Below, piece by piece: positions 21,101 to 48,032 of a stretch of DNA of 64,000 bases (position 1 is the first letter of the stretch; each line of letters starts with the position of its first letter). The stretch lies in NCBI RefSeq assembly GCF_018977255.1, contig NW_024704742.1:806001-870000 (forward strand), read 5' to 3'. The notes under the pieces were generated by a model that worked only from the letters and a program-made list of their open reading frames with translations, made no database searches and was not told the DNA's origin. The DNA is from Callorhinchus milii. Taxonomy: Eukaryota. Made by a program: the position numbers and the translations under genes.

Positions 21101-22990
21101 GATCTCTGAAGTCTCTTCAGTCTCTGTTCATTCAAGACAACTGTTTTGTTAAATGACCTCTCCCTCAGAGACGCTGGAGATGTGATGGGTGACGACAGAG
21201 TTAGGTGGGGTTCCTTTGCCCTTCGCGGTCAAATAACCTCCAAACGCTCACTGTCTGGCCTTACGTGTGCAGCAAGAGCCGACTCCTTGAGGAGAGCGGA
21301 CTAAGGGCCAGCAAATTGGAGCAAGGAAAGAAAAGACTCTTGGGCCTGTCGGCGCCAATCTGTCATCAACTGCTGGGAAAGGTCTAGGCCCAGCCCAGCG
21401 TGACTGACTCAGAGATCTTTCCTTCCCTGGGTGAAGCATTTTTCCGCATCCCAAAACTCTTGTGACTCAGCGAGATCTGGTTGTCGCTGGGTTGCCATCG
21501 CACCCAGGCCAGTCTGCTGCTCTGCCCGGCCATCTGTAGGATCTGTACTTTCACAGAAGCACACGGCATCGCTCGCTGTCCCAGTGAGCACGGGCTCACA
21601 TTGCTTGCCACAGCATAAAGGGTACGACAATCTGTGCCGTGCAGGTTTGAGGTTAGGTATTGGCGTGTGGTCAAGGACAATACAACAAGGGGGGCAATAG
21701 AACAGACTAAAATGAGGGGACGGGAGCGAGATGTATAATTTAGGCTTTAGCTGAGAAACACACTGGGAAATGTATCCAAGTTTTCTGAAGTTGCACCTTT
21801 GGCGGCCGTGTGGGTCACTTAAGACGGACACTTATCGCCTTGTGCACTCCTGACGAGCGGAAGCCGCGTTTGAATTGACTTCTTCATTCGAGAGCAATTC
21901 AGCTCGGTCTCCCTGGCACGCCAGTGTTTTTAGTAACTGGCAGATGTAAAACGGAACACTCAGTTGGACTGCTCGGAAGGATAATCCAGGCACTGTGGCA
22001 CAAATGATGTTCTTCCGAAAGAATCTCATTCCTGCGAGCCTTTCATTCTCCCCCGTTGAGAATCGTGCTGAATGCTCTCTACTGGAATTTTCTTTTGGAC
22101 TGTGTGCGCGCGTGTGTGTGTGTGTGTGTGAGGGGGGGGGTATTGGGAGTGGGGGGGAGAAACAATGTTTGCAGTCAACTGAAGTACAGTACATAAGCAG
22201 CTTCCGCTGGGCTCTCGCTGACTCTTAGAACAAGATGAAATGATCCAAAGCCTTGTGCGTTTTTTTAATCTCACCCACGCACCATTGCAACCGCGTCCTC
22301 TAGAAAGCGGCCGAACGGCAAGCTCCACAAAAGCCAATCAATGAACAGGCGCTTAAGAAATATGTGTAATGGCTGTGCAAGTACGTTCCAGCAGCCTTTT
22401 ATCATTATCCCAGACACAAGGCATATTGAATACAACTTCTTGTTCGTTCCCCCTCCACCACACCCCCTCTCCACCCCATCACAATGTCCCTTTCATTGTG
22501 AGAGGGCTTCCACAGTAGTGATCTGTCTCTTGAAATGCAACTGACGGTCATCTGGTTCCAAATGCCAATAGCTGGCAGGGTTTTACAGGCAGATTTCAGG
22601 GTTTGTATTCCTCAAAGTCTTAAAGCCACATCCTCTGATTTTGCCACTGTCAAGCTTGGTGCTGGTTTAGTTTGAAGACAGTGAAAGGGTGACTATAGGG
22701 GGGCGGCCATAGGAATAAACGAGAGCGATAGTCCCAACTCGTCTTCCCGAAAAGTTGTTCTCTTCAAAAATCACAAACAAAATCCAAGGCTGCCTCAGTT
22801 CTGAGTTGTTGTTTACAGGGTATTAATCAGGCTGTATAAGTGCACTCAAATCCTTCCAGTCCAGTTAACAACAACTTGCATTTATATAGAGCTGTTCAGG
22901 AGGAGTAGTGGCTAAAAGGCCTTAACAGAGAGTTCCTGAGCCATTGTTTCCCCTTTAAATATTTCTGTATTTCTTGTGGTTCCCTTTCAG

Positions 22991-23167
22991 ATCGTTGCCC
23001 TTTGCAGAGAAGCTGCCCTTTTGGCTCTTCAGGAAAATCTCCAGGCCCAGAGTGTTATGGAAAGGCATTTTGTTCAGTCACTTAAAATTGTGACTCCGAG
23101 GATTCCTGAGAAGCTCATCGAGTTTTACACCAACTACCAGCAGCAAAGTGGACTGCACAGCCTATGA
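22991..23167 (+). CDS. SPATA5: Terminal coding exon of SPATA5/AFG2A AAA+ ATPase (C-terminal lid of second AAA domain)
   Basis: Encodes [58 protein letters not shown], closely matching the vertebrate SPATA5 C-terminus ([15 protein letters not shown]...VTPRIPE...SGLHTL). Phase-0 acceptor AG at 22989-22990, TGA at 23165-23167. Adjacency to SPRY1 fits known synteny. Confidence 0.93.
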
Positions 23168-27665: not shown

Positions 27666-27735
27666 CGGTGTGGCGCAACTGGTAGCCCACGGGCCACATC
27701 CGGCCCGCTGGATGATTTTACCCGGCCCGAGACCA
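27666..27735 (+). mobile_element. hAT (Charlie-like) DNA transposon terminal/subterminal remnant
   Basis: gcccacgggccacatccggcccgctggatgattttacccggccc resembles the typical hAT end motif CGGCCCGCGGGCCACATCCGGCCCGC. Confidence 0.6.
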
Positions 27736-29995: not shown

Positions 29996-31371
29996 AGCCC
30001 TTCCTGAAAACTCAGGTCACAGTAAAAGTGACTTTTCATACTCCGAATCAAAATGATAGATAGGTTCTGCTTCCGCAGTGATAAAAAATAATCCTTACAG
30101 TTGATAGAGCGCTTTATCACGTCGTCGAGACATCTCAAAACAGAATATACTGTAAAGTAAATTAACTGTATATTTTGTGGGCAAAACGGGTAGACTGAAA
30201 TATATCTCCCGTCTGGGCTGGGGCAAACAAACCTTTTGCTGTGGTTCAATAAAAGTGTTCCCGTATTCCCACATTGAATGGTTTAATAATAATAATAATA
30301 TAATAATAACCCTTGCATTTGATATAATAATAATAATCCTTGCATTTGATATAGCGCTTTTCACGTCTTCTCGACATCTCAAAGCGCTTCACAGAATAGA
30401 CTGTAAAGTGAATTGACTGTATATTTGTGGGCGAAACGCGGCGGCCGATTGATGAGGGGTAAATTGACATCCTGTATTTTTTTAACGTCCCGAAATTAAC
30501 GGGGGTGGGGGGGGGGGGGGGGGACATCAATGAGGACATGTTGTCGAACAGCTTATGTACAATACTTGTGTGATATGGGTTTGTATGTAGTTACCACGGC
30601 ACAGTGTGGGCTTCGGGCAGCCCCGGTGTCAGGCAGGCAGCAGACTGGGGTGACTGCACTGCCTTTGCACACTCTCTGACTGACACCATTTAATTACCGT
30701 ATGAAAAGGTGGACGGCGTTCATCAATGTCAGAATGGTGAAGCCCCCCCACCCCCACCCCCACCCCCCCCAACACACACACACACACACCATTAGTACCA
30801 GCCAAGCTGGGATCCATCCTGTCCTGGGAACTCAGCCAAGCGAAACCTCCCTTTATCTCCGCCCAGTCACTGCAACCCCTGAAACCGGCACCTCATTGAG
30901 AGCCAGCGGTGCGACCAGGGCTCTCTCTCTCTCTCTTTGTGAAAGGCAACAGCGGCGAACTCCAGGTGGACAGTGTGTACACATCCTGCCCCCCCCCCCC
31001 ACACACACACACACAGGCTGCCCATTGGTATGAGAAAGCCATCAGATCAGAGACCTCCGCGCATTAAAGTGCCACCGACCCTCCCTGCTTCCTGTCCTTC
31101 TGAAAAGCACAGACTGACACTGAGAACAAAAGCTCATGGTCTGGCTGACCCGCATGTGTTTACATGTCTCAGCCCCCCCCGCACCCCACCCCACCCCCAC
31201 CGCACCCCCTTCATCACGCATGCATGTACGCGCATGTGTATATGCATGATTGGTTTGCATATATGTATGTATGTTCGCCCACAAATATACAGTCAATTCA
31301 CTTTACAGTGTGTTCTGTGAAGCGCTTTGGGACGTCCTCCCGACGTGAAAAGCGCTATATCAAATGCAAGG

Positions 31372-31409
<38 letters not shown>

Positions 31410-31690
31410 GTGTGTGTATGCATCTATGGTATGTTTATATGTATGTGTGTGTGTATGCATGTATGGTATGTATATATGTATGTGTGTGTATGCATGTGTG
31501 CGTGTGGGCAAAACCCATAGATTGTGAAATGTATGGCTGTGTATCTATGTTTGCATGTATGTGTATATATCTGTGTGTGCGAGGAAGGAGACAGCTCACA
31601 CAGTCCTCACACAGTTACCGCTAATCATGTATGTGTGCATGTATGTGGACGTGTGTATGTGTACATATGGGTGTGTGCGTGTGCGCCTGT
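31410..31690. repeat. (TG/TATG)n low-complexity tract (duplicated at ~37408-37690)
   Basis: Direct reading. Confidence 0.9.
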
Positions 31691-33034
31691 GTGAGGGAGG
31701 AGATAGCTCACACAGTCCTATTACCATTAATCAGTGCAAAGAAAACACTAAGTGGAAGCATGTTAAGAGTTATTAACCACTGAAATGTAATAAGGTGTGT
31801 GTGGGGGTGGGGCTGGTGGGGGTAGACTTCAGTGTCTTTCTCCCACTGAGCGCACATCTAACTTTACATACTGAATAAATAAATTGACAGCTTTTACCCT
31901 CTTCCCCCACCCCCCCACCCCACCACCACCACCCCACCCCCATCTCTTGACGATACCGACGATTAATTTGGCTTAAAAGGAGACATTGGGGAGCTGTGAA
32001 AAAAATGCCACGCAACCATGCATTTCGTTCTGAACCTCGTGACATTTACAGCAGAAGTAAAATGCGTTCAGGTTTCACTGAGTGGGGGGTGGGGGGGATG
32101 TTATTCACAGCGGCAGAAATGAGTTACTTTCATCCGTTAGTCCTTTCAACGGAGAGAAGACAATCGGATCTTCATTCCGTTGCTTCGTACGAACGTGGAG
32201 GCGACAGCGCAATTTTATTCCACGGATGGATAATAAATAATAATCCTTGCATTTTTGATATGGCGCCTTATCAAGTCGTCTCAAAGCGCTTCACAAAATA
32301 TTCTGCTTCGCTTGCAACCAAAGGGTCCAATATGGAATGTAGATTGACCTTTCGTCTTTATAACTCTGGGAGGACTCATGTGGAAGGACTCCTCTAACAC
32401 CACAAAAGATAGACCTATGACACTGCCAGTTGCAAGACCTTTCCGATGAGGTATAAATCATGTCTTCACGTCAATTGGTTATTGTGCAAGTGTCGGACAC
32501 ACAGACAGATAGACACTTCATCTTTATTAGTATAAGATGAAGTATATTATATGATGATTCTATGCCTGGTATAATTTAGGAAACTTTTAGATTGTTCTGT
32601 GTAGTATTTTGATGTCTGTACTCTGAACACCCCCCAACACCCACACAAACTTCCCCTCCAAAAACCCAGAGTCCATGGGGGAGGAGGAGGAAGGAGTGGG
32701 GAGAGGGGGGGGAGGGAGGAAGAAAGTGTGGAAGGGGGAAGAAGTACAGTTCGAAGATCACAAAGGATCCTTCCCCCCCAAAAAAAACAATCACGAATCG
32801 ATGAGGTTTACGATACGAACCAATGAAGTTTTTTTTATTTAAAAAAAAGGTTTCTTAGAAAAATGATTGCCAACACTGGACAATCTTGAAATAAAATCCT
32901 GGGTATGAAAAATATATTGAAAATGCATACACACAGGTTGACCAGCGGGGGTTAAAGAAGGAAAAAAACAGGTAAAGGTTTGGGGGTGCCCTTTCTCAGG
33001 GCTTTTTTATTAATTAAAACAAATCCTGCTTCAA

Positions 33035-33067
33035 ACACACACACACACACATTCACAGACAGACACA

Positions 33068-33108
<41 letters not shown>

Positions 33109-33340
33109 ACACACACAGACAGAGAACACACATTCACACACAGACACACACACACATACACACACATACAGACACACACACATTCACACACATAGTCAGA
33201 GACACACACATACACACACATACAGACAGACACACACATTCACACACATACAGACAGACACACACATTCACACACATACAGACAGAGACACTCACACACA
33301 TACATACAGAGACACACTCACACGTACAGACACACACACG
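33035..33340. repeat. Compound (CA)n microsatellite (duplicated at 39023-39320)
   Basis: Direct reading. Confidence 0.95.
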
Positions 33341-33758
33341 AACCATTGGGAATTGTATGATAAGTTAAAAGATAATGATAGATGTGACGTGGGCCCTCGA
33401 AGAAGCAGGAAGGATAAAGTGAACGGGACAGCTGGCAACCTGATCTTAGCTGAGGTGGAATTAATTCCAATGTAGTTTCTTCTTGTCGTTTGTTGTGACC
33501 AAAGTGTGTTTGCGGGGAGAGTGGTGGGGCGGGGGGGGGGGGGGGCAGTGGGGGGAATTACTGTATCTCCACCCGACCCGACAGTTTGAGGGGAGCAGAC
33601 ACACCCTCAGATGCTGCTGTCCGGCGTCTCTGCGCTTTATCATTCTTCATTGGAAAACACGACCCCCAATTTGGTGACTTCTTTCGCCTCCCGGGAGGTG
33701 CAGACGATGGGCTTAAACCACCAGATAAAATAAACCCCTTCCCTCATTTCTTTTCTTG

Positions 33759-33798
<40 letters not shown>

Positions 33799-34219
33799 GA
33801 AGAAAACCCGTCTCTCTCTCTTTCTCTCTCTTCAGCCGTTCCGGTGTGAAGGAGAGAAACTGAAGGACAGTCGGACTCCCAGATGAAAGGGGGGAACCAG
33901 AGGGTTTTAATGAATGAGCCATTTCCTGCACAAATGGAACCAGTCACAAGGCCACAGAGAATCCCCAACAAAGGCAGAGTCTGTGCTGCACAATAATAAT
34001 AATAATAATAATACAGAGATACTGTACTCCATCCTCGGGCAGAGGGTTCCGGCTGCAAAATGTCACCGGTTGCGATCGCGAAGCAACGAAAACACACATT
34101 AATTACACTTCACACCATCCAGTGCCACCCCCCCCCCCACCCCCCACACACACCCAATCCCCCCCACCCCACACCCAATCCCCCCCCCCCCAGCAGCAGA
34201 GGGAAGGCTTTCACGTGGG

Positions 34220-35095
34220 CCCCCCCACCACCATACTCCCCCCCACCCCCCCACCATACTGCCACCCCCACCCCCCACCATACTACCCCCCAACCCCCCA
34301 CCATACTCCCCCCCACCATACTCCCCCCCCACCCCCACCACATACTGCCCCCACCCCCCCCACCATACTCCCCCCACCCCCCCCACCACCATACTACCCC
34401 CCCCACCCCACCATCCTCCCCCCCACCACCATACTCCCCCCCCAACCCCCCACCATACTCCCCCCCACCACCATACTCCCCCCCAACCCCCCCACCATAC
34501 TGCCCCCACCCCACCATACTCCCCCAACCCCCCACCACCATCTTCCCCCCCACCATACTCCCCCCACCATACTCCCCCCACCATACTCCCCCCCACCCCC
34601 ACATACTATCCCCCGCCCCCACCCATACTACCCCCCCCCACCATACTCCCCCCCAACCCCCCCACCATACTCCCCCCAACCCCCCCCATACTCCCCCCCA
34701 CCATACTCCCCCCCCCAATCCCCAGCATACTCCCCCCCCACCATACTCCCCCCCACCCCCCCACCATACTCCCCCACATCCCCCCCACCCCCCACCATAC
34801 TCCCCCCCCACCATACTCCCCCAACCCCACATACTATCCCCCCCCCCCCACCAATACTACCCCCCACCCCCACCTTACTCCCCCCAACCCCCCCCAGCAT
34901 ACTCCCCCCCCCCATACTCCCCCCCCCACCATACTCCCCTCCCCACCATACTCCCCCCCCACCATACTCACCCCCCACCATACTCACCCCCCCCCCCACC
35001 ATACTCACCCCCCCACCATACTCACCCCCCACCCCCCACCATACTCACCCCCCCCCACCATACTCCCCCCAACCCCCCACCATACTCACCTCCTT
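34220..35095. repeat. C-rich minisatellite, core CCATACTCCCCCC
   Basis: Dozens of degenerate ccatactcccccc units. Confidence 0.95.
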
Positions 35096-35560
35096 CCCCC
35101 CCAACACAACCCCCAACATCCCCCCTCAACACACACACCCCAACACACACACCCCACCAACACACACCCCAACACACCCCTCAACACACACCCCAACACA
35201 CCCCTCAACACACACCCCCAACACACACCCAACACACACCCCAACACACACACCCAACACACCCCCTCAACACACACACACCCAACACACCCCCTCAACA
35301 CACACACCCAACACACACACCCAACACACACCCCAACACACACACCCCCACCAACACATACCCCCAACACACCCTCAACACACACCCCAACACACACACA
35401 ACACAGCCCCTCAACACCCCCCCCAACACACACCCCCAACACACCCCTCAACACACCCCCCAACACCCCCCACAATACCCCCCAAACACCCCCCCAACAC
35501 CCCCCCCAACACCCCCCCCAACACCCCCCCACAATACCCCCCCCCACAACACCCCCCCTC
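35096..35560. repeat. (AACACACACCCC)-type minisatellite
   Basis: Degenerate caacacacacccc / cccctcaacacac units. Confidence 0.9.
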
Positions 35561-35904
35561 AAAAAAAACCCCGAGAGAGGTTGAAGGAAAACATTCATAC
35601 AAACAAATAAAGACTGTCGATGACCATGAAAGCGACTGCAGCCACAGTACACCTTAAAGCCACTGTCATGTGAATGTCAACAGCTGTTTTCTACCCCAAA
35701 AACAGTTTTGATTATTTTGGTGGGGAGGGGGGGGAGGGGGGAGGGGAGGGGAGGGAGGGAGGGGAGGGGGGTGAGGGGGAGGGAGGGGGAGGGGGAGGGG
35801 GTATTATTCCCCTCTCCCCCCCTCTCTGCTCTCTGGCCTCTCTCCCACTTAACTCACCAAACCCCACACCCCGCAATGTGCGTTAAAAGTCCAAGTACGA
35901 AAGG

Positions 35905-36450
35905 GGAATGAGGGAGGGAATGAGTGAGGGAGGGAGGGAATGAGTGAGTGAGGGAAGGAGGGAATGAGTGAGTGAGGGAAGGAGGGAATGAGTGAGGGAG
36001 TGAGGGAGGGAGGGAGGGAGGAATGAGTGAAGGAGGGAGGGAGGGAGGGAATGAGTGAGTGAGTGAGGGAGGGAATGAGTGAGGGAGGGAGGGAATGAGT
36101 GAGGGAGGGAGGGAGGGAATGAGTGAGGGAGGGAGGGAGGGAATGAGTGAGTGAGGGAGGGAGGGAGGGAATGAGTGAGGGAGGGAGGGAATGAGTGAGT
36201 GAGTGAGGGAGGGAATGAGTGGGTGAGGGAGGGAGGGAGGGAATGAGTGAGGGAGGGAGGGAGGAAATGAGGGAGGGAATGAGGGAGGGAGGGAGGGAGG
36301 GAATGAGTGAGTGAGGGAGGGAAGGAGGGAGGGAGTGAGGGAGTGAATAAGTGAGGGAGTGAGGGAGGGAATGAGGGAGGGAGGGAATGAGTGAGTGAGG
36401 GAGGGAATGAGTGAGTGAGGGAGGGAGGGAATGAGGGAGGGAGGGAGTGA
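35905..36450. repeat. Purine-rich minisatellite (GAGGGAGGGAATGAGT)n
   Basis: Direct reading. Confidence 0.95.
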
Positions 36451-36527
36451 TGGCTCAGAGGCTTTGAGTAGACCCGACTTTTTGGGGTTGATGCTTTTTT
36501 TGTTTGTTGCTCAGATTACACTAGAGA

Positions 36528-36805
36528 GGGAGTGGGGGTGTGGGGGTGTGGGAGGAAGGTGGGGGTGGGGGTGAAGTGTGGGGTGAAGGTGGGGGTGAAG
36601 GTGGGGGGTGGGGGTGAAGGTGTGGTGTGGGGGGGTGAAGGTGTGGTGTGGGGGTGAAGGTGGGGGTGGGGGTGAAGGTGGGGGGTGGGGTGAAGGTGGG
36701 GGTGGGGGTGAAGGTGGGGGGTGAAGGTGGGGGGGTGAAGGTGGGGGTGGGGTGAAGGTGGGGTGTGGGGGTGAAGGTGTGGTGTGGGGGGGTGAGGGTG
36801 GGGGA
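36528..36805. repeat. G-rich minisatellite (GGGGGTGAAGGT)n, G-quadruplex-prone
   Basis: Direct reading; many closely spaced G4-G6 runs. Confidence 0.93.
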
Positions 36806-36923
36806 GAGATTCGACTTCCTGAACCTTGGATTTTGTTGGGGTTTCTCCAGTCCATTTGAATGCTCCCAAAACAGCGTCCCGCGGGCTGTGAGCACACACT
36901 GGGAATGCTGATGCCAAGGAACA

Positions 36924-36948
36924 NNNNNNNNNNNNNNNNNNNNNNNNN
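36924..36948. other. Assembly gap (25 N)
   Basis: Run of 25 n. Confidence 1.
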
Positions 36949-39055
36949 TCTTTGTGAAAGGCAACAGCGGCGAACTCCAGGTGGACAGTGTGTACACATC
37001 CTGCCCCCCCCCCCACACACACACACAGGCTGCCCATTGGTATGAGAAAGCCATCAGATCAGAGACCTCCGCGCATTAAAGTGCCACCGACCCTCCCTGC
37101 TTCCTGTCCTTCTGAAAAGCACAGACTGACACTGAGAACAAAAGCTCATGGTCTGGCTGACCCGCATGTGTTTACATGTCTCAGCCCCCCCGCACCCCAC
37201 CCCACCCCCACCGCACCCCCTTCATCACGCATGCATGTACGCGCATGTGTGTATGCATGATTGGTTTGCATATATGTATGTATGTTCGCCCACAAATATA
37301 CAGTCAATTCACTTTACAGTGTGCTCTGTGAAGCGCTTTGGGACGTCCTCCCGACGTGAAAAGCGCTATATCAAATGAGAGGATTATTATTATTATTATT
37401 ATTATTATGTGTGTATGCATGTATGGTATGTTTATATGTATGTGTGTGTGTATGCATGTATGGTATGTATATATGTATGTGTGTGTATGCATGTGTGCGT
37501 GTGGGCAAAACCCATAGATTGTGAAATGTATGGCTGTGTATCTATGTTTGCATGTATGTGTATATATCTGTGTGTGCGAGGAAGGAGACAGCTCACACAG
37601 TCCTCACACAGTTACCGCTAATCATGTATGTGTGCATGTATGTGGACGTGTGTATGTGTACATATGGGTGTGTGCGTGTGCGCCTGTGTGAGGGAGGAGA
37701 TAGCTCACACAGTCCTATTACCATTAATCAGTGCAAAGAAAACACTAAGTGGAAGCATGTTAAGAGTTATTAACCACTGAAATGTAATAAGGTGTGTGTG
37801 GGGGTGGGGCTGGTGGGGGTAGACTTCAGTGTCTTTCTCCCACTGAGCGCACATCTAACTTTACATACTGAATAAATAAATTGACAGCTTTTACCCTCTT
37901 CCCCCACCCCCCACCCCACCACCACCACCCCACCCCATCTCTTGACGATACCGACGATTAATTTGGCTTAAAAGGAGACATTGGGGAGCTGTGAAAAAAA
38001 TGCCACGCAACCATGCATTTCGTTCTGAACCTCGTGACATTTACAGCAGAAGTAAAATGCGTTCAGGTTTCACTGAGTGGGGGGTGGGGGGATGTTATTC
38101 ACAGCGGCAGAAATGAGTTACTTTCATCCGTTAGTCCTTTCAACGGAGAGAAGACAATCGGATCTTCATTCCGTTGCTTCGTACGAACGTGGAGGCGACA
38201 GCGCAATTTTATTCCACGGATGGATAATAAATAATAATCCTTGCATTTTTGATATGGCGCCTTATCAAGTCGTCTCAAAGCGCTTCACAAAATATTCTGC
38301 TTCGCTTGCAACCAAAGGGTCCAATATGGAATGTAGATTGACCTTTCGTCTTTATAACTCTGGGAGGACTCATGTGGAAGGACTCCTCTAACACCACAAA
38401 AGATAGACCTATGACACTGCCAGTTGCAAGACCTTTCCGATGAGGTATAAATCATGTCTTCACGTCAATTGGTTATTGTGCAAGTGTCGGACACACAGAC
38501 AGATAGACACTTCATCTTTATTAGTATAAGATGAAGTATATTATATGATGATTCTATGCCTGGTATAATTTAGGAAACTTTTAGATTGTTCTGTGTAGTA
38601 TTTTGATGTCTGTACTCTGAACACCCCCAACACCCACACAAACTTCCCCTCCAAAAACCAGAGTCCATGGGGGAGGAGGAGGAAGGAGTGGGGAGGGGGG
38701 GGAGGGAGGAAGAAAGTGTGGAAGGGGGAAGAAGTACAGTTCGAAGATCACAAAGGATCCTTCCCCCCAAAAAAAACAATCACGAATCGATGAGGTTTAC
38801 GATACGAACCAATGAAGTTTTTTTTATTTAAAAAAAAGGTTTCTTAGAAAAATGATTGCCAACACTGGACAATCTTGAAATAAAATCCTGGGTATGAAAA
38901 ATATATTGAAAATGCATACACACAGGTTGACCAGCGGGGTTAAAGAAGGAAAAAAACAGGTAAAGGTTTGGGGGTGCCCTTTCTCAGGGCTTTTTTATTA
39001 ATTAAAACAAATCCTGCTTCAAACACACACACACACACATTCACAGACAGACACA

Positions 39056-39096
<41 letters not shown>

Positions 39097-39735
39097 ACAC
39101 ACACAGACAGAGAACACACATTCACACACAGACACACACACACATACACACACATACAGACACACACACATTCACACACATAGTCAGAGACACACACATA
39201 CACACACATACAGACAGAGACACACTCACACACATACAGACAGACACTCACACACATACATACAGAGACACTCACACACATACATACAGAGACACACTCA
39301 CACGTACAGACACACACACGAACCATTGGGAATTGTATGATAAGTTAAAAGATAATGATAGATGTGACGTGGGCCCTCGAAGAAGCAGGAAGGATAAAGT
39401 GAACGGGACAGCTGGCAACCTGATCTTAGCTGAGGTGGAATTAATTCCAATGTAGTTTCTTCTTGTCGTTTGTTGTGACCAAAGTGTGTTTGCGGGGAGA
39501 GTGGTGGGGGGGGGGGGGGGGGCAGTGGGGGGAATTACTGTATCTCCACCCGACCCGACAGTTTGAGGGGAGCAGACACACCCTCAGATGCTGCTGTCCG
39601 GCGTCTCTGCGCTTTATCATTCTTCATTGGAAAACACGACCCCCAATTTGGTGACTTCTTTCGCCTCCCGGGAGGTGCAGACGATGGGCTTAAACCACCA
39701 GATAAAATAAACCCCTTCCCTCATTTCTTTTCTTG

Positions 39736-39769
<34 letters not shown>

Positions 39770-40187
39770 GAAGAAAACCCATCTCTCTCTCTTTCTCTCT
39801 CTTCAGCCGTTCCGGTGTGAAGGAGACAAACTGAAGGACAGTCGGACTCCCAGATGAAAGGGGGGAACCAGAGGGTTTTAATGAATGAGCCATTTCCTGC
39901 ACAAATGAAACCAGTCACAAGGCCACAGAGAAGCCCCAACAAAGGCAGAGTCTGTGCTGCACAATAATAATAATAATAATAATACAGAGATACTGTACTC
40001 CATCCTCGGGCAGAGGGTTCCGGCTGCAAAATGTCACCGGTTGCGATCGCGAAGCAACGAAAACACACATTAATTACACTTCACACCATCCAGTGCCACC
40101 CCCCCCCCACCCCCACACACACCCAATCCCCCCACCCCACACCCAATCCCCCCCCCCCCAGCAGCAGAGGGAAGGCTTTCGCGTGGG
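36949..40187 (+). repeat. Copy 2 of ~3.2-kb duplication, starting exactly at the gap edge
   Basis: Differs from copy 1 mainly by homopolymer/microsatellite lengths and a handful of substitutions. Confidence 0.97.
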
Positions 40188-40330
40188 GAAGTCACTTCTG
40201 CATTCGGAAGGCTCTCCAAGTGGTTCCGGGCAGTTTAAATTTACGGCCATGTCATGGTCATATAGCCTGCGATTCAGATCCTCTGGCGTGGCAATGCCCT
40301 GGGGGGCTGAATAGAAATAAGAACTGAAAA
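40188..40330. promoter_or_regulatory. Candidate SPRY1 promoter/enhancer block
   Basis: Unique, CpG-retaining sequence with ETS cores CGGAAG and TTCCGG, TAAATTTACGGCC (posterior HOX-like) and a TATA-like CATATAG. Confidence 0.35.
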
Positions 40331-40549
40331 AGAGTCAGGAGGAATTTGAAAAGTACAATCGTGTTAGCAAAATAAGATAATGGTTCCGAAAGCACAGAAA
40401 AACAGCGTGCGCCAAGTCAAAACCGATGTATCAGTTGCTGATGCTTTACAAGACACCCAGCACTGCGCTCAACAGTACCTTGTGAATGTAAAAAAAAAAA
40501 GTGGTTTTCCCCAATTATCCTTCTCGTAAAATAAAAAAAATTCCTATTA

Positions 40550-41456
40550 TGACATCCATGTATTAAAAGGAGGACCAAAAAAAAAAAAAAAATATATAGA
40601 ACTGGTTTTAATTAGTTTCAATTACGATTTTTTTTCCCATGATTCACAAACGAACAGAAGGCGACATACTCTGTGCGATTTTGAGGAATCGGTGGGTGGA
40701 CGATACGCGTTAGTCGAGGGGGGCTGTTTTGCAGGTGGAAAGCCATGGTTTTTAAACTCCTTTGAAATGAAGGGTTTTGTCTTCACCCACAGGCTGGGCC
40801 GGGTGGCACTTGCAATCCTGAGCCTGGTGCGCAGAACAGAAGCCGGTCCACATTAATATGAAGCGAGCCTGTGATAAGGGCTGTGGTTAGAAATGGCACT
40901 CAATCCTTGGCCAGGGAGGGAGGGTGAGGGTGAGGTGAGGTGGGAGATGGGGTGGGAGGCCGGGACATGGGGGGGTGAGGGGTGGGGGGAGGAAGGAAGG
41001 TAAAGGCACACATGTGTGCATCCGAGATTCCTCGCAGCGTTAAAAGAGCGTCGTCGCAAAATTTCAGATCACGCAGAGTTTTTGGAAAACCCTTCCCAGG
41101 TTTGGTTTGGATTCGGGATCAGCCGCTCTAAATCCCCGAAGACAACAGCAAGAAAAACAACAAACAAAAAAAAAAAAAAAACAAAAAAAAAAGCAGCTTC
41201 CAGATTAAGAGCGAATTTCAAACTTTCCGCACAGGGGCCCTCGTGTTTTTAAAAAGACGACGACAGCCCTTAAGGCTGGGACTCTTGAGCAATATTTCGA
41301 GCCTCACGAGAGCAGAAAACAGGCACGGGGGGGAGGGCGGGGTGGGGGGGGGAAGGGTGGGTGGGGGTGGGGGGGAGGGTGGGGTGGGGGTGGTGGGGGA
41401 AGAGAGAAAAACAAGAAAACAAGGACACGCGAGGCTTCGCAAACCGCTGCTTCCCA
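40550..41456 (-). other. SPRY1: SPRY1 proximal 3'UTR
   Basis: Follows the stop, lacks interspersed repeats, has U-rich tracts. Short colinear motifs (ctgggaagctgc, gatttagag, cacagagtatgtcgcct) resemble human SPRY1 3'UTR as recalled. The lower boundary is uncertain. Confidence 0.65.
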
Positions 41457-42455
41457 TCAAGAAGGTTTGTCCTGCCCTCGCGTGGGGCAGCTCTTGACTT
41501 TGCAGTAGACAGTGTTGGAGTTCTTGCACCGGCACCCGGGCCGGTGCACCCAGTCATAGCAGCCCTGGCAGAGTTTGACGCAGCCCTTGGCCGGAAGGTA
41601 GCAAAGCAGACAGGGCAGGAACAAGGACATCAGACCCATGCAACAGAACCTGGAGCAGCAGTGGGAATGGGTGCACGAGCAAGGGCTGTCCGCGCACGAG
41701 TCCTCGTCGTCGCTGGAGCAGTGGTAGAAGACTCCCTTGACCAGGCACATGCAAGTGCCATACTCCACCGTGCTCTCGGCAGAGCACAGGCACTGCCTGT
41801 TGCAGGCCAGGCAGGAGGGCAGGGTCCTGGGTGCAGTGCACTCCCCGCACTTGCACCTCCCGCATCGCTCACATATAAACCTGTGCTTGGCCAAGTCCTC
41901 TTTCCCCAAGCACTTCAGCTCGTCGGACGCGCAGCCGGCCACGGCGGAGGGCTTGGGCTGGATCCGGATTGTCCGCTCCGCTCTGTGGTGGCCGGAGCTG
42001 AGCCGGGCGGGGGGCGAACGGCCCAGGAGGCCCTGCTCGGACGAGGCGCTGCTGTTGCTCCCCGAGCTGGCGGCGCTGCCTGTGCTGGTTGACCTGCTCA
42101 GCGCTGGCATCCTGCCGGCCGGTTGGTGGTGAGGGGCGTGCGGCTGCGGCTGAGGCTGCGGCTGAGAGGACCGCTGCTCATAGTTGTTGTTCACGTTGAT
42201 GGTTATGACTTCGTGAGTCCTCTCGTGCTTGTCATGTCGCTGCGCCGGCCGGCTGTTACTGCCCTTCTTGGCCGTTGTGGGCGCAGGACCTTCTGTGTAC
42301 TCGTTGCTGCTCCTGATGGCTTTGATCTGGTCGAGGGAGAGGATGGCAGTGTGTCTCAGCTCCCGCTCGTACTCCAGTCTCTGCCGACTGTCGAGGGAGG
42401 GTGGCTGGATCACGACTAATGAACCGCCACCGCCATGTTGACCTCGGGGCTCCAT
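41457..42455 (-). CDS. SPRY1: Sprouty RTK signalling antagonist 1, 332 aa, single coding exon
   Basis: SPRY1-type N-terminus (MEPRGQHGGGGSLVVIQPPSLDSRQRLEYERE), Cbl-binding NEYTEGP motif, Ser-rich SRSTSTGSAASSGSNSSASSEQGLLG, Cys-rich SPR domain, and C-terminus ..CPTRGQDKPS. ORF intact. Confidence 0.97.
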   Translation of the reverse strand: MEPRGQHGGGGSLVVIQPPSLDSRQRLEYERELRHTAILSLDQIKAIRSSNEYTEGPAPTTAKKGSNSRPAQRHDKHERTHEVITINVNNNYEQRSSQPQPQPQPHAPHHQPAGRMPALSRSTSTGSAASSGSNSSASSEQGLLGRSPPARLSSGHHRAERTIRIQPKPSAVAGCASDELKCLGKEDLAKHRFICERCGRCKCGECTAPRTLPSCLACNRQCLCSAESTVEYGTCMCLVKGVFYHCSSDDEDSCADSPCSCTHSHCCSRFCCMGLMSLFLPCLLCYLPAKGCVKLCQGCYDWVHRPGCRCKNSNTVYCKVKSCPTRGQDKPS

Positions 42456-42545
42456 CTGGGGTGATCACAACTTCCAGCATTCACCGTGGACCTGGCGGGC
42501 ATCGGAAACTCTGCCGGGGGTGGGGTGGGGGGAAAGGAAGAGAAA
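42456..42545 (-). promoter_or_regulatory. SPRY1: SPRY1 coding-exon 5'UTR (55 nt, 42510-42456) and 3' splice acceptor (CAG ending at 42511)
   Basis: Minus strand reads ttttttctcttcctttccccccaccccacccccggCAG|agtttccgatgcccgccagg...ccccagATG. As I recall, human SPRY1 also has an acceptor ~55 nt before the ATG. Confidence 0.8.
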
Positions 42546-45500
42546 AAATATCTTTAAATCAAAACCTGCCATTGCGTAGAGCCATTCAATAGTAACAGAA
42601 ACAACAACATTACATTTATAGAGCGCCTTTCACATCGGGAGGACGTCCAAGGCTGTGGACAGTTAAGGGTTAGCAACTTGAGCTGAGGGTTGGGATCAGA
42701 AAGGGCTGGAGGAGCAAGTGGGGTTGGTAGTGGGAAGATGTCTAAAGGCAAGGTCGAGGTGGAAGGTCTCGAGATGAGCCTCGAGATACGCAAGGGAGGG
42801 GAAAGCATTGGAAATTTAGGATAGGTGAAGAGGGTTGGAGGAGACTGCAAAGATAGAGAGAGAGGGGCATGTTCATTGCTGGCAAATGACACACAGATGA
42901 ATATTTTTTGCTATCACAAGGGAGTCCTAGGCTTTGGCAACAGGGATACACTCCGAAGGCCTTTAAAACCCCAAAACCTATCCTCATCCTGCACATCGAA
43001 CGAGCAGTGGGTCCCACTGGAGCTCCAGTGAACGAGGGAGCCCTAATGGTTCCAGCAGCAGAGAGTTCATTGGTGCTTGATCAGCGAGTTTGGCTGTAGC
43101 CCAGGGAAACTTCCCAATCCTCAGATGGGTAGGTCTTATTAGATCTGGGACAGCCAGATCTTAAGAGGGGAGGGGAGAGGAGGGAAGCAAATTGGAAGCC
43201 AGTCCAGTCAAATTCCGCAAATGGGCATAAAACCTGATCACATTAGCTCCGGGCTGAAAGCAAATCACAGTAAGAGCACCAATTCTAACAGGGGGAAAAT
43301 AACAAGTTTATTCTTTTAGAATTAGGTTCATACTTGTTAAAGTCAGCCCTGAATTGCAGGTACAATATCAGTATTTCCCAATAATAATCATCCGCAGAGA
43401 TGTCGTGCTTAGTTACGAACGCTGCAAAGGAAATTTCAGTAAATTAAGTTACCTTTTATTCGCGCTCCCCCCGCCCGCCCACCTCCCCAACCCCACCACT
43501 ACCTCCATTAAGTGGGTAGACCTGTTGCTAGGCGAGCAGCAATGCTGCTAAGGTTGACTATGGGCGTATATTGAAGGGAGGAGGCAGTGTGGAGGGGGGA
43601 TAAGCACTTGGCATCTACTCTTCTCCTATTGCCAGTGGTACAGGCCAGATTAGGAAACATAGTCACACACAAAAATCCAGCTCCTATCTCTCCAACGCAG
43701 AACAAATAATGATAATAAAAATAATCCTTGCTTTTGATATACTGAAGCACCAATTTGTTTTATATGCGATTATATTCCAGATGGTAGCAATCTAGATTAT
43801 GTAAATACCCATGTACATTTTCCTTCCTGTCTCTTTGGCTGTCCAAAACAAAGACTTATTTTTCCTAGCCTGCTGCATTTAGGATTTCTACACTTCTCCA
43901 CATGTAGACATGACTGTCAAGATCAGAATCAGAACAAAATTTTCTTTATTCCAACCTTTGCACAATGACATTTACACAGCGTCCAAGGTGAGGGAAAAGC
44001 TCACTGGTAACAATGCTCACGCTTACATCTCTGTGAACCTAACCTACCACTTTTCCAAAGGTTCGGTTCACTGCCTTGTGCGAAAGTACCAAAATAAAAC
44101 AGTTGCAACATCAACACCAATACAGTCTAAAATCCCTGTCTATTGTTGCGCAGAACTGAACGCCTCGATTACAAGAGAGAGAAAAACGTGAAGTTCACAT
44201 TCTTTACTGGTAAATACAGACGTTTTGTTTTCAGTTCTGAAATTGAGTAGACGTTCAGCACGACAAGTCCACTCCTAGCTCCATGGGTGAATGCACCACA
44301 TGGCGTGGGAATCAGCCAAATAGATCAAGAAGGTCCCACGTTTGATCTACATAGTGATAACTCATCCCAGTTGAGATGATGGAAAACACTGCAAATGATT
44401 TTTGCATGACCCTGCTCAACGGAAAATCAGATCTAGATTGCCATCCAACGGACCCCTGCTACAAGTGCATTTGCGGATGTTGGGGAGGGGGAACACAAAC
44501 TAAGCCCCAACTGTGATGTCCATATGCCCCCAAAAGAGACTGAGGACATGCACTGCCTATGCTCCCTTGTGACCAACAGCCGAGTGGGTAAATTACCAGA
44601 AGGAAGTGTAATCCAGGATCAGTTGGCACATTCAGGACAGCAAATGTTATGGAGATTCAAGACCAAGAAATGCACAACATTGCAATGTTCAAACATTGTC
44701 TGATGCTGCCAAATCTTTAGGACAGTCAGTAAAGGGGATGGATCCCTTCTCTCCTTACCTCCTCTCTACAATGGCAAAAATGTGGAGATTAACAATAGTT
44801 GAGGAACAGCAGTGCTACAACAGTAGAGAAAGCATCAGTGAAAGAATCCATTATATGGGACCACTAGAAGACTAGTCACTTTGCCTTTGAAATTAACACG
44901 CAAACACAAGCACACAAACACATAAGCAGTCACACAAACCAACACATACACACAGTTACCAGGCACTAGTTCAGGGCACTATTTTATAGGGTTAATCTGA
45001 AATCAAGAAAGTTCAGAATCCTGTTGTGACCATCACTCGTTGTGATTTATCTCAGCTAAACGGGTCTGCTCAGTGGAAGGAGTACCTCCAGTGAAGTGCT
45101 TTGGGAGAAACGATAGGATCTGCTCTGTAGCAAGTTCTAATGAGATCTGATACAGAACAAAATTGTGTGGGAGGGGAGCCTTCCGTAACCAATAGCACAC
45201 CTTGAAAATGTTTAAAAACCCTGCTCCGATAGTACGTGGTGGAGCAGAGTTCCTGTGAGTCTGCTTGACAGTCTTTATTTAGGAATCCTGTTAGATAATT
45301 GCCCCCACATTCGACCCCCAGCGGCTGATTTGCCGTTCTCAAAGATCGCCTCCTCCTGGATGGAAGACACAGCGATCTAGTGAGGGTCTCGGAGATGTGT
45401 GTGCTGTAAAGACCAGAAGGCAACAATGCAGGAGAGGAAATAGTCATGTTGTGACTGACAACTTGGTAGGGGTTGAATGGTAAAAAGGTGAGTGCAACAA

Positions 45501-45734
45501 ACAGAGAAAGCAGCGGTGCAATCTTTAGGAAAACAGTGCATTTCCTCCAGTACGTTTTTTTCCCCAATTGTAAATTCCCTCTTTGCGCAAGGAAACTAAT
45601 GTAAAACAGGCCCCGTAACGTGATAGGCAGTAACATTTTATTTAAGTGACACGGTGCGCCGTGTTCCAGTGTAGAACATGTGCTTAGTTTGATCGATGAG
45701 GTCTGTCTTGTACTGGGTTGCTAAAAATAGAGAT

Positions 45735-46027
45735 CTTTCGACAATAGAAGTTCGGATGAAGAAGGCCTTTTGGCCCATTTGCGCTCACCCTTCCAGAAAC
45801 CGACCCAACCACCTTCTCCTCACAGCGTCCAGCTCTTCCTTAAACGTCCAGTGTACTGGCTCCGATCACCCCGCCATGATAACCCATTCCACCCACTGAT
45901 CACCCTCTGCGTAAAGAATTCTGGGCTCAGATTACCTTGAACCTGTTTCTCCTGATGTGCCTATTTTTCCGGTTTTTGCTTTCTCCATTCTGATAGACGT
46001 CTTGTACATTTCTTAAGTTCCTCCACT
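45735..46027 (-). mobile_element. Decayed CR1 3' end abutting the inferred right inversion breakpoint
   Basis: gaaggccttttggccc..cattccacccactgatcaccctctgcgtaaagaa..ttgtacatttcttaagttcctcc. Confidence 0.7.
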
Positions 46028-46030
46028 GAC

Positions 46031-46795
46031 TGTAAGACACGTAGCAGCAAAATAGCTACGTTTTTCGCGATCAGCATATGGTAGATCCCCAGGATATGCA
46101 ATAGCGTTGAAAATCTTCCCCCCCCACCCCCTGTTTCTAGCCTACTTTGGTCTTGGTTTAAGTTTGAATTTATAGCCTATGTTGTATAGTACACAGGTAC
46201 AAAAAACCCTTTTGTATTGATCCCAATTGTTATGCATGTTGTACGAACGTTTTTCATTTTCTCTTACCGAAGAAATATCCTTTCAAATTGAACGGAGACT
46301 TGTGCTCATGAGCACCCACAGTGTCTGAATGTACAAATTGCCCACAAAATGTTCACAGGCTTCATCCATTCGAACTTTATTGTGACATCCATTGTTAAAT
46401 GTTGGGTTGGTTTTAATTCATGGGCCGAATTCTGGGTTTATTTTCTTCATTCTGCCCCAGTGAGCTCTTCATGCTTTTTGCCTCAGCCAAATTGTGGCTT
46501 TTTTTTTGTGTATATTTTATGTACAAAAGAAGAAGTTTTGAGGAATCCTGACTATTTTTAAAACTGTCTGTCAAAACTTTTTTGTTGTTGTTGTAAAGAA
46601 TATTTATTATGTGAAGCTCTATTATTTTATGGTATTTATTTCAAAAGCTGTCTGAAATTTTACTCATTTCTGAAATATAACAAATATCATTACTTACTGA
46701 GAAAATTAAGGGTTGGCACAAAAGAAAAATGCATATGTTAACTATAAGGCAGAAATATATAAATTAATGAAAATACCTTTTTGTGTGTTGTCTGA
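46031..46795 (+). other. SPRY1: Distal SPRY1 3'UTR and poly(A) region, on the opposite strand to the CDS
   Basis: 46465-46775 (aaattgtgg..tgtatattttatgtac..ctgactattttt..tgtaaagaatatttattatg..ctctattattttatggtatttatt..catatgttaactataa..attaatgaaa) matches my recollection of the human SPRY1 mRNA 3' end. It has AU-rich elements, AATATA/TATAAA at 46754-46763 and a GU-rich downstream element at 46778-46794. Confidence 0.78.
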
Positions 46796-48032
46796 ATCAT
46801 TTAATTCCTGTTCCCATGTAGTAACAGTGATAATAGACCTCGCGTTAGATTTAGCGCCTTATCACATTGTCGAGATGTCTCAAAGTGCTTCTCAGGATGT
46901 TACTGTAGTGACCAAATGTGTTGAAGATGAGCTGCTACACGTTAAGAAGGCGGTTTTTCGCTGTGTCAGTGAAAGGGGAAAACGCTTGTCTGTGGCTACT
47001 CTGCTCTCGGTGTTGGTCAGTTCCCGATTCAACACAGTGTGAGAACAGCATTTCCGTGTCAGGCTCCAAAACACACTCGATGTTACAGTAAATCCTGTGA
47101 AGCGATTTTGAGACGTCCTCCTGACGTGAAAGGTCCCTTTAATCAAATGCAAGGTTTATTGTTTTTAACAAATGTGCAGATTTGACAATCTTTTATAATC
47201 AGCCGTCACTTCATTTCTTTTTTTTTTTTAAAAAAAGAAATCTGCATGAAAAGCCCGACGGAGAGGGTAAACAAAAAGAGCTGCGATGCTTAAAGCCCAG
47301 GAGGGATTAACAATAATAATAATAATCCTTGCATTTGATACAGCACCTTATCACATCTTCGAGACGTCTCAAAGCGCTTCATAGGATACACTGTAAAGTG
47401 AATTGACTGTATATTTTGTGGGGGAAATGTGGCAGGCGATTGCGCACAGCAGTGAGTATCCCACAAACAGACGCCTTCAGTAACTAAGCCAGGGTGGGAA
47501 TTCCTTCTACTGATTTCTGGAAAGCACAAGGAATAGCAGCTGAGGACAGGATGGGGCTGGGCTGGGCTGCGATGCCCTCTGTGGTTGAGTTAGCTCCAGG
47601 CGATCGCTGCCTAGACTCACACTTGAAGAGTGGATGTTTGGACAAGGGCTGGTGGCGCCTGTGGAACAACTGCACAAACTGGCTCCTCCACAGCGGAGGA
47701 ACCGAGAGAATTAAGAGAGAAAAGGGGAGGCTTGGAAAAACAAGTCTCACGCCAGTCAATACTTCCAGGTAATTTGATTTAGCATCGCTGGGCATTAAAA
47801 ACCTGATGAAACGTGGAATGTTTTCAAGCCTGTGGTACATTGCGCCTGGTTGAGGAATTTCTTTCTATAAGTCAGGAGTAGATGGGAAGTGTTTTTGGTA
47901 ACTTGAAGAAGGTTCCTGCTTATTTGGAGCTGCAGTGATCTTTGGATAAAGATCCTAATTGTACTCGGATTGCTACTAATTGAATCCAGCGTGTTACGAC
48001 AGGACTATCACTCAGTGCTCTGTTGCCGGGTA

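What the first reader, a model, noticed from the sequence alone, without database searches (positions are those of the whole stretch)
40330..46031. SPRY1 appears split by a ~5.5-6 kb inversion carrying the intron, CDS and proximal 3'UTR
Seen: the CDS, acceptor and proximal UTR read on the minus strand, while an AU-rich mRNA-end-like block reads on the plus strand at 46030-46795. Recalled knowledge: that block matches the end of the human SPRY1 3'UTR. Inference: flipping the segment between ~40190-40550 and ~46025-46140 restores a normal gene (intron, CDS, continuous ~1.9-kb 3'UTR, poly(A)) co-oriented with SPATA5. As written, an intact CDS is cut off from both its distal UTR and its presumed first exon. 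This is either a real or heterozygous inversion rewiring an FGF feedback gene, or a mis-oriented assembly block; there are no Ns at either junction.
Basis: partly seen in the sequence, partly recalled or inferred. Interest (0 to 1): 0.82.

Follow-up and report, generated by a model that had tools for sequence, protein, structure and literature searches.

The report
SPRY1 body flipped against its UTR end
In this cartilaginous-fish sequence the coding part of the growth-factor brake gene SPRY1 points the opposite way from the deeply conserved tail of its own messenger RNA, which is either a true small inversion in the sequenced animal or an assembly error beside a gap.

Summary
The SPRY1 coding exon (acceptor 42511/42510, CDS 42455-41457) reads on the minus strand. 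A 316-base AU-rich block at 46459-46774 reads on the plus strand. In an independent bird contig (L001) the same block lies about 975 bases downstream of the SPRY1 stop, on the coding strand (78.8% identity, E 3e-61). The upstream neighbour AFG2A/SPATA5 ends on the plus strand at 23164. So one flip of about 5.3-5.9 kb restores the ancestral order.

No second copy of the block lies in the window. No N and no inverted repeat sits at either junction zone.

New here: a 25-N gap at 36924-36948 sits between two 98%-identical 3.2-kb copies (30934-34219 and 36949-40187).

Real versus artefact therefore stays open. My odds are 0.45 for a real inversion on the assembled haplotype, 0.40 for an assembly artefact and 0.10 for a fixed lineage-specific inversion. 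Interest is modest until reads decide.

The parts
22988..23164 (+). Terminal coding exon of AFG2A/SPATA5, the upstream neighbour that sets the ancestral direction.
   Evidence: ORF 22940-23164 hits Pfam AAA_lid_3 at E 8.2e-5, below the curated cut-off. Its residues 17-75 align to the last 59 residues (862-920) of the solved human AFG2A chain 8rhn_K, E 1.3e-20.
30934..34219 (.). Copy A of a 3.2-kb near-identical direct duplication, at the end of the left contig.
   Evidence: blastn gives 98.2% identity over 3286 columns to 36949-40187. The copies differ by 13 substitutions and 17 indels, 9 of them single bases in C/G runs.
34220..36923 (.). Satellite-rich tail that follows copy A and runs to the gap: a C-rich array, then two G-rich arrays with short unique spacers.
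   Evidence: Sequence read; repeat families D1, D3, D4 and D6. Nothing else in the window matches it.
36924..36948 (.). 25-N assembly gap, the only N run in the window.
36949..40187 (.). Copy B of the duplication. It starts at the first base after the gap and ends at the proposed left junction.
40188..41456 (-). Sequence following the SPRY1 stop on the minus strand (candidate proximal 3'UTR, 1269 bases). It carries an ATTAAA at 40607-40612 followed by a T run.
   Evidence: It cannot be aligned to the bird UTR, so its extent as UTR is inferred.
41457..42455 (-). SPRY1 coding sequence, 332 aa plus stop, intact.
42456..42512 (-). 55 bases of 5'UTR in the coding exon plus the acceptor AG, preceded by a polypyrimidine tract.
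   Evidence: The alignment to L001 reaches 42508.
42513..46030 (-). Intron-side sequence that travels with the CDS. A>T on the plus strand up to about 45.5 kb; a weak CpG-enriched patch at 45601-46000.
Evidence: No Pfam hit in 23 ORFs scanned across 42557-47155.
46459..46774 (+). Deeply conserved terminal block of the SPRY1 3'UTR, on the strand opposite to the CDS.

Best explanation
The assembled sequence carries a simple inversion of about 5.3-5.9 kb, from roughly 40188 to somewhere in 45.5-46.4 kb. It flips the SPRY1 coding exon, at least 3 kb of sequence upstream of it and about 1.3 kb of proximal 3'UTR. The flip is relative to the ancestral vertebrate order: AFG2A/SPATA5 > SPRY1 exon(s) > CDS > proximal UTR > conserved terminal UTR block.

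My leading reading, by a small margin, is that this arrangement truly exists in the DNA of the sequenced animal on the assembled haplotype, as a heterozygous or otherwise young structural allele, and is not the species' normal gene structure.

On that allele, SPRY1 could at best be transcribed from the minus strand and end at a proximal site, for example the ATTAAA at 40607-40612. It would lose the roughly 0.3-kb terminal UTR element that has been kept since the split of cartilaginous and bony vertebrates. It would also lose its promoter unless exon 1 lies inside the flipped block.

Shown: the strand switch, the ancestral collinear order in one outgroup, the neighbour's direction, the absence of gaps and inverted repeats at the junction zones, and two different continuations after position 40187.

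Inferred: that reads support both junctions, the allele's frequency, and all transcript consequences.
For: 1. Strand switch against a collinear outgroup: L001 CDS = window minus strand, L001 distal UTR = window plus strand, E 3e-61 (alignment).
2. AFG2A/SPATA5's last exon is on the plus strand at 22988-23164, so the distal block, not the CDS, keeps the neighbour's direction.
3. Both junction zones are continuous sequence. The only Ns are at 36924-36948.
4. No reverse-complement match of 11 bases or more links 39800-40900 to 45300-46500 (0 found, 0.57 expected from shuffles). One search found only low-complexity pairs. An assembler therefore had no repeat on which to flip the block, and an artefact would need two independent false joins.
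5. The plus-strand A-minus-T excess rises steadily from 40.0 kb to about 45.5 kb and then falls. This fits a block with a long history of transcription in the CDS direction, abutting plus-sense UTR.
6. Two assembled continuations leave the same 3.2-kb sequence at exactly 34219/40187. The two copies differ by 13 substitutions in 3.24 kb, about 0.4%. This looks like two haplotypes, or two true copies, that differ structurally at the left junction.
7. The CDS is intact and the orphan block is still 79% identical to a bird's. Any real event is therefore young, or the block is still under constraint.
Against: The locus demonstrably contains an assembly defect 3.2 kb away. The gap is flanked by a 98% duplication, with copy B starting at the first base after the gap. 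Ko et al. list a gap between duplicated pairs on one scaffold as a hallmark of false duplication (PMC9516828, passages seen). Errors cluster in such places.

The other continuation after 34219 is satellite sequence. It is not the reverse complement of the block's far end. The simple picture of one inverted and one ancestral haplotype is therefore not what the two contigs show.

Nine of the 17 indels between the copies are single bases in C/G runs. That points to a noisy consensus, so some of the 0.4% divergence may be error rather than heterozygosity.

A gene-disrupting allele of a conserved developmental regulator is unlikely a priori.
Confidence: 0.45

Rival explanations
1. Assembly artefact. 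The animal has the normal collinear SPRY1 gene. The block was flipped during contig construction, scaffolding, breaking and rejoining, or gap filling in a satellite-rich, poorly resolved stretch next to a contig boundary.
For: A 25-N gap lies at 36924-36948. A 3286-column, 98.2% duplication straddles it, and copy B begins at the first base after the gap. This fits the published hallmarks of false duplication (PMC9516828).

The duplication ends at 40187, which is where the anomalous orientation plausibly begins. The block therefore lies within about 9 kb of a contig start.

Many single-base homopolymer differences between the copies suggest a low-quality consensus there.

The CDS is intact and the detached UTR block is fully conserved, as expected if nothing happened in the animal.

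A short N-terminal motif shared by two relatives' longer SPRY1 ORFs (P0122, P0003), probably derived from exon 1, is absent from the whole window. This could mean sequence is missing at the gap.
Against: There are no Ns at either junction, and no inverted repeat is present that could mislead an assembler. Two false joins would be needed inside otherwise continuous sequence. A scaffolder's orientation error would normally leave gaps on both sides of the block.
Confidence: 0.4
2. Fixed, lineage-specific inversion. All members of this species or lineage carry the flipped gene. SPRY1 works from the minus strand with a promoter and first exon inside or to the right of the block and a proximal poly(A) site. 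The orphan UTR block persists because decay is slow or because it has another role.
For: Against a 450-million-year outgroup, most orientation differences are fixed events. The junctions are clean. ATTAAA followed by a T run lies 844 bases after the stop on the minus strand. A CpG-enriched patch at 45601-46000 has observed/expected 0.75-0.90 against a window mean of 0.49 and could be a promoter carried with the block.
Against: The detached block is as conserved against the bird (78.8%) as the CDS itself (74.6%). That argues for continuing constraint as part of the mRNA, and fixing a variant that removes it should be selected against.

The coincidence with a contig fork at 40187 is unexplained under this reading.

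A related holocephalan's SPRY1 ORF (P0122) sits on a 3849-base contig. That hints at a long mRNA there, but I could not read the contig.
Confidence: 0.1
3. No rearrangement of SPRY1 at all. The plus-strand block is an independent conserved element, or a transposed copy of the UTR end, and the true distal UTR lies elsewhere.
For: Only one comparator was available. The plus strand has no canonical poly(A) hexamer near 46775.
Against: The block is single-copy in the window. No homologue of it lies on the minus strand below the CDS down to position 1. In the bird it sits where a 3'UTR end should be, and similarity stops at the same base in both species.
Confidence: 0.03

Closest known systems
Vertebrate SPRY1 gene (Sprouty family, feedback antagonist of receptor-tyrosine-kinase/FGF signalling)
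   Same: A single coding exon is preceded by a conserved acceptor and a short 5'UTR stretch. The protein has a Sprouty Cys-rich domain and the invariant NEYTEGP motif. The gene lies next to AFG2A/SPATA5. A terminal 3'UTR block is conserved from a bird to this fish.
   Different: The terminal UTR block is on the opposite strand and on the 5' side of the CDS, about 4.0 kb from the ATG. In the bird contig it lies about 1 kb 3' of the stop.
Heterotype false duplication at an assembly gap (Ko et al. 2022, PMC9516828)
   Same: Two near-identical copies lie on one scaffold with a gap between them, and their divergence is at heterozygosity level.
   Different: This accounts for the 30934-40187 structure only, not for a flipped block without gaps. 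Read depth and k-mer copy number, the other defining tests, could not be run.
Small gene-splitting inversions known from human genetics, such as the repeat-mediated F8 intron-22 inversion (recalled, not looked up)
   Same: One breakpoint lies inside the transcription unit, so an intact coding part is separated from the rest of the gene.
   Different: No inverted repeats flank the block here. The size is under 6 kb. What is cut off is a UTR end, and possibly the promoter, not coding exons.

Membership tests
SPRY1 orthologue (Sprouty family) | C-terminal Sprouty cysteine-rich domain | tested here: met
   Pfam PF05210, E 1.1e-33, residues 200-311 covering the whole profile.
SPRY1 orthologue (Sprouty family) | Conserved N-terminal tyrosine motif (NEYTEGP) and closest similarity to proteins named SPRY1 rather than SPRY2-4 | tested here: met
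   N51-P57 are invariant in a 12-species alignment. Every named protein among the 120 best hits is called sprouty homolog 1, sprouty1 or SPY1, or is a hypothetical or unnamed product.
SPRY1 orthologue (Sprouty family) | Synteny: immediately downstream of AFG2A/SPATA5 | tested here: met
   The AFG2A terminal exon lies at 22988-23164 on the plus strand. The human gene order used for comparison is recalled, not checked here.
True chromosomal inversion (structural variant) | Orientation of an internal segment reversed relative to flanks and to the ancestral order | tested here: met
   bird comparator; neighbour direction.
True chromosomal inversion (structural variant) | Both breakpoints supported by sequencing reads that span them | not testable with these tools
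No whole genome is held.
True chromosomal inversion (structural variant) | Alternative (collinear) arrangement seen in another haplotype, individual or sister species | not tested
   No DNA of a second cartilaginous fish could be fetched. The search for related loci gave one bird contig only.
Mis-oriented scaffold block | Block bounded by assembly gaps (N runs) on both sides | tested here: not met
   The only N run in 64 kb is 36924-36948, 3.2 kb left of the left junction.
False (heterotype) duplication | Gap between the duplicated pair on the same scaffold | tested here: met
   The criterion comes from PMC9516828.
False (heterotype) duplication | Half read depth and single-copy k-mers in both copies | not testable with these tools
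   No reads could be laid.

The most novel reading that the evidence does not exclude
The flip is real and fixed in this holocephalan lineage. SPRY1 has been running for some time from the opposite strand with a shortened 3'UTR. Its terminal UTR element, conserved for about 450 million years, survives as an orphan on the other strand. It survives either because it also acts at the DNA level or in a separate transcript, or because decay in this slowly evolving genome has not yet caught up. That would be a natural deletion experiment for one of the most conserved parts of a Sprouty mRNA.
Probability: 0.1. Interest if true: 0.7.

Novelty: new member of a known kind. Interest (0 to 1): 0.35.

Why it matters
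If the flip is real, it is a naturally occurring allele, or lineage state, that separates an intact FGF/RTK feedback inhibitor from a 3'UTR element conserved between cartilaginous fish and birds, and perhaps from its promoter. It would give a direct handle on what that UTR element does.

If the flip is an artefact, the reference sequence misrepresents a developmental gene. It also carries a 6-kb false tandem structure next to that gene. Both would mislead annotation, UTR and microRNA-site analyses, and synteny-based inversion counts, so the record should be corrected.

In both cases the check is cheap: map the existing long reads to 30-48 kb of this window.

Tried and rejected
Read evidence.
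- The look-up of sequencing runs listed 17 holders in 5 studies. No RNA holder is listed.
- No whole genome is held for the window.

Earlier findings: nothing by place or by sequence.

More comparators.
- Genome contigs and viral contigs held no SPRY1 relative.
- The metagenome scan gave L001, which I used, and L002, a 43% match over 53 residues that I did not use.

Refining the breakpoints with L001.
- The proximal UTR and the 540 bases before the block give no alignment above shuffles. The one score above shuffles is a C-rich tract.
- L001 1-1746 finds nothing in 23.2-31 kb or 42.5-52 kb.

Locating exon 1. A short N-terminal motif shared by P0122 and P0003 was back-translated and searched for, with no match. 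A six-frame peptide scan gave nothing convincing. One YGNSR match at 27279 on the minus strand has no splice donor and is on the wrong side, so I take it as chance.

Junction or UTR ORFs as probes of the protein collection. ORF 46292-46558 had no candidate. I ran no further search on the others.

Other checks.
- A recalled microRNA-21 seed-match motif is absent from both UTR parts. Its 7 matches in the window all lie elsewhere, against 6.3 expected.
- Rfam found no family in 36-50 kb.
- Pfam on 298 of the 540 ORFs of 55 aa or more gave only the AFG2A exon plus two sub-threshold chance hits. The 298 were those of 62 aa or more that were not low-complexity outside 31-46.8 kb, plus 23 ORFs across 42557-47155.

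Literature. A search for SPRY1 + inversion + UTR listed 9 papers. None is about this by title or abstract; I saw the listing only.
Full report
What is in the sequence

An intact 332-aa ORF lies at 41457-42455 on the minus strand. It has a full-length Pfam Sprouty domain, E 1.1e-33. Its best database relatives are SPRY1 proteins of vertebrates. The best named one is a shark protein at 80% identity, followed by coelacanth and birds at 73-75%. Its 90%-identity cluster contains an entry named for a holocephalan, so the window comes from a cartilaginous fish of that group.

Just upstream on the minus strand are a polypyrimidine tract, an acceptor AG at 42512-42511 and 55 bases of 5'UTR. A bird contig has the same layout. 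The coding exon therefore needs an upstream exon on its own strand.

Downstream of the stop, the minus strand runs through C-rich and T-rich low-complexity sequence. It has an ATTAAA at 40612-40607 followed by a T run.

At 46000-46999 the plus strand is AU-rich, GC 0.32-0.40.

No vertebrate nucleotide database is on hand. A scan of metagenome contigs with a 12-species SPRY1 alignment returned L001, an 11,256-base contig without Ns. It carries a complete SPRY1 CDS at 1800-2762 on its plus strand. Its protein is 99.4% identical to a bird SPRY1.

blastn of L001 against the whole window gave two matches that are not low-complexity:
- L001 1747-2763 (acceptor, 5'UTR stub, CDS) matches window 42508-41456 on the MINUS strand, 74.6% over 1064 columns.
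- L001 3737-4019 matches window 46475-46774 on the PLUS strand, 78.8% over 307 columns, E 3.35e-61.

In the bird the second stretch starts 975 bases after the stop, on the coding strand. MAFFT extends the match to window 46459-46774 and shows runs of up to 25 identical bases. Similarity stops at the same position in both species, right after a shared AT-rich motif. That is what the 3' end of an mRNA should look like.

The plus strand has no AATAAA or ATTAAA between 44093 and 47794. If this is the poly(A) site, it uses a variant signal in both species.

The block is single-copy in the window.

The CDS and the conserved end of its own 3'UTR are on opposite strands, and the UTR end sits about 4.0 kb on the 5' side of the ATG.

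Direction of the flip

An ORF at 22940-23164 on the plus strand hits the AAA+ lid domain. It aligns end to end with the last 59 residues of solved human AFG2A (SPATA5), E 1.3e-20. The neighbour's last exon is therefore on the plus strand, like the UTR block and unlike the CDS.

From memory, and unchecked here, human SPATA5 and SPRY1 are co-oriented with SPRY1 downstream.

Geometry gives the same answer. With one inversion, only a flip of the CDS-bearing segment puts the plus-sense UTR end to the right of a minus-sense CDS.

No other gene was detected. Of the 540 stop-to-stop ORFs of 55 aa or more, I scanned 298. None had a Pfam hit apart from the AFG2A exon and two sub-threshold chance hits.

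Where the junctions are

The bird does not help. Outside the CDS exon and the terminal block nothing aligns above shuffled controls. The right junction therefore lies somewhere in 42511-46458 and the left one below 41456.

The plus-strand A-minus-T count rises almost monotonically from 40.0 to about 45.5 kb and falls after that.

The bird's is about 1.27 kb.

No reverse-complement match of 11 bases or more links the two junction zones: 0 found, 0.57 expected. Neither recombination between inverted repeats nor an assembler confused by them explains the flip.

The window has one N run, 25 bases at 36924-36948. The 3.24 kb that start at the first base after it (36949-40187) repeat 30934-34219 at 98.2% identity. 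The two copies differ by 13 substitutions and 17 indels. Nine of the indels are single bases in C/G runs and eight are in microsatellites.

After the shared part the two copies diverge abruptly:
- Copy A continues into 2.7 kb of C-rich and then G-rich satellites that match nothing else in the window, and it ends at the gap.
- Copy B continues into the SPRY1 downstream sequence in reverse.

A gap between duplicated pairs on one scaffold, with heterozygosity-level divergence, is what Ko et al. describe for heterotype false duplications (PMC9516828; I saw the listing and the passages). Because copy B starts at a contig start, the same picture would also arise if a true repeat had broken the contig. 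Read depth would tell the two apart.

In either case, two different continuations after one position mean that the underlying reads fork there. The possible causes are a heterozygous structural difference, a true duplication boundary or a chimeric contig end.

Real or artefact

I could not get read evidence.

For a real event:
- The sequence is continuous across both junction zones.
- There is no repeat to mislead an assembler, so an artefact needs two independent false joins.
- There is a fork at the left junction.

For an artefact:
- There is a proven assembly defect 3.2 kb away.
- The block lies within about 9 kb of a contig start.
- The consensus there is noisy.
- The continuation seen after copy A is satellite sequence, not the ancestral neighbour that a simple heterozygous inversion predicts.
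- A disrupted SPRY1 is unlikely a priori.

A paper's table lists a public chromosome-scale assembly of the holocephalan named as PacBio CLR / Falcon / Chicago + Hi-C / HiRise (PMC12952989, passages). I did not establish that the window is from that record. If it is, gapless flips inside contigs would more often be real than not.

A fixed, old inversion is the least likely reading. The orphan block is at least as conserved against the bird as the CDS is, which argues that it has stayed part of a selected mRNA until recently.

My odds:
- Real on the assembled haplotype, young or heterozygous: 0.45.
- Artefact: 0.40.
- Fixed in the lineage: 0.10.
- No rearrangement: 0.03.

Consequences if real (inferred)

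The minus-strand gene would end at a proximal site and lose the terminal UTR element.

Whether it also loses its promoter is open. CpG-rich stretches lie to the left, on the side where the ancestral order puts the promoter: 25001-25600 and 27201-28000, observed/expected 0.76-1.0. A weaker patch lies inside the block at 45601-46000, observed/expected 0.75-0.90 against a window mean of 0.49. In the bird the CpG island lies within 1.8 kb of the coding exon, so a compact unit carried whole by the flip is conceivable.

Two relatives' SPRY1 ORFs (P0122, P0003) begin with a shared four-residue extension. It does not match this window's intron end and so probably comes from exon 1. I could not find it anywhere in the 64 kb. 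Exon 1 is therefore unlocated and may be missing at the gap.

Comparison with what is known, and verdict

The gene is an ordinary SPRY1 orthologue in its ordinary neighbourhood. The unusual thing is its orientation relative to its own UTR end.

I found no paper on such an arrangement. The search for SPRY1 + inversion + UTR returned 9 papers, none relevant by title or abstract.

As a kind of thing, a small inversion with one breakpoint in a gene, or an assembly error, it is known. The finding is well observed and worth one read-mapping check. Until that check is done its interest is modest.

Noticed in passing
window 30934-40187: A 25-N gap at 36924-36948 is flanked by a 3.24-kb, 98.2%-identical direct duplication. 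Copy B starts at the first base after the gap. This is most likely two overlapping contig ends (a false duplication), and it adds about 6 kb of spurious tandem structure.
   Followed up: yes
window 34220-36923: About 2.7 kb of satellites: a C-rich array of roughly 21-base units (34221-35570), a G-rich GGGAGGGAATGAGTGA-like array (about 35900-36450) and a GGTGGGGGTGAAGGT-like array (about 36520-36800), with short unique spacers. It is unique in the window and its origin is unknown.
   Followed up: partly
window 22988-23164 (+): Last coding exon of AFG2A/SPATA5. It matches the C-terminal 59 residues of the solved human protein.
   Followed up: yes
window 25001-25600 and 27201-28000: The two strongest CpG-rich stretches of the window (observed/expected 0.76-1.0, GC up to 0.64) lie between AFG2A's end and SPRY1. 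They are candidates for the SPRY1 promoter in the collinear order, but no homology supports this.
   Followed up: partly
window 3677-3771, 4218-4312, 6985-7079, 29164-29258, 30075-30169, 30319-30413, 46820-46914, 47309-47403, 49590-49684: Nine copies of a SINE-like repeat of at least 95 bases with an (AAT)n head. One copy starts about 45 bases after the end of the conserved UTR block. Fragments also lie in the SPRY1 intron at 42580-42732 and 43705-43741.
   Followed up: no
window 42464-42466 (-), 9 bases upstream of the SPRY1 ATG: An in-frame TGA here is read as glycine in a related holocephalan's longer ORF (P0122). P0122 and the more distant P0003 share the N-terminal extension MYGN, probably an upstream ATG in exon 1. 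The motif is absent from this window.
   Followed up: partly
window 40101-40114 and 46118-46131: The same 14-base C-rich word occurs in direct orientation in both junction zones. The bird UTR has a similar C-rich tract at about the same distance (roughly 350 bases) upstream of the conserved block. This hints that collinear UTR homology reaches at least to about 46118.
   Followed up: partly
L002 10001-10141: A second metagenome locus has a weak 43% match to SPRY1 residues 147-199. It was not examined.
   Followed up: no
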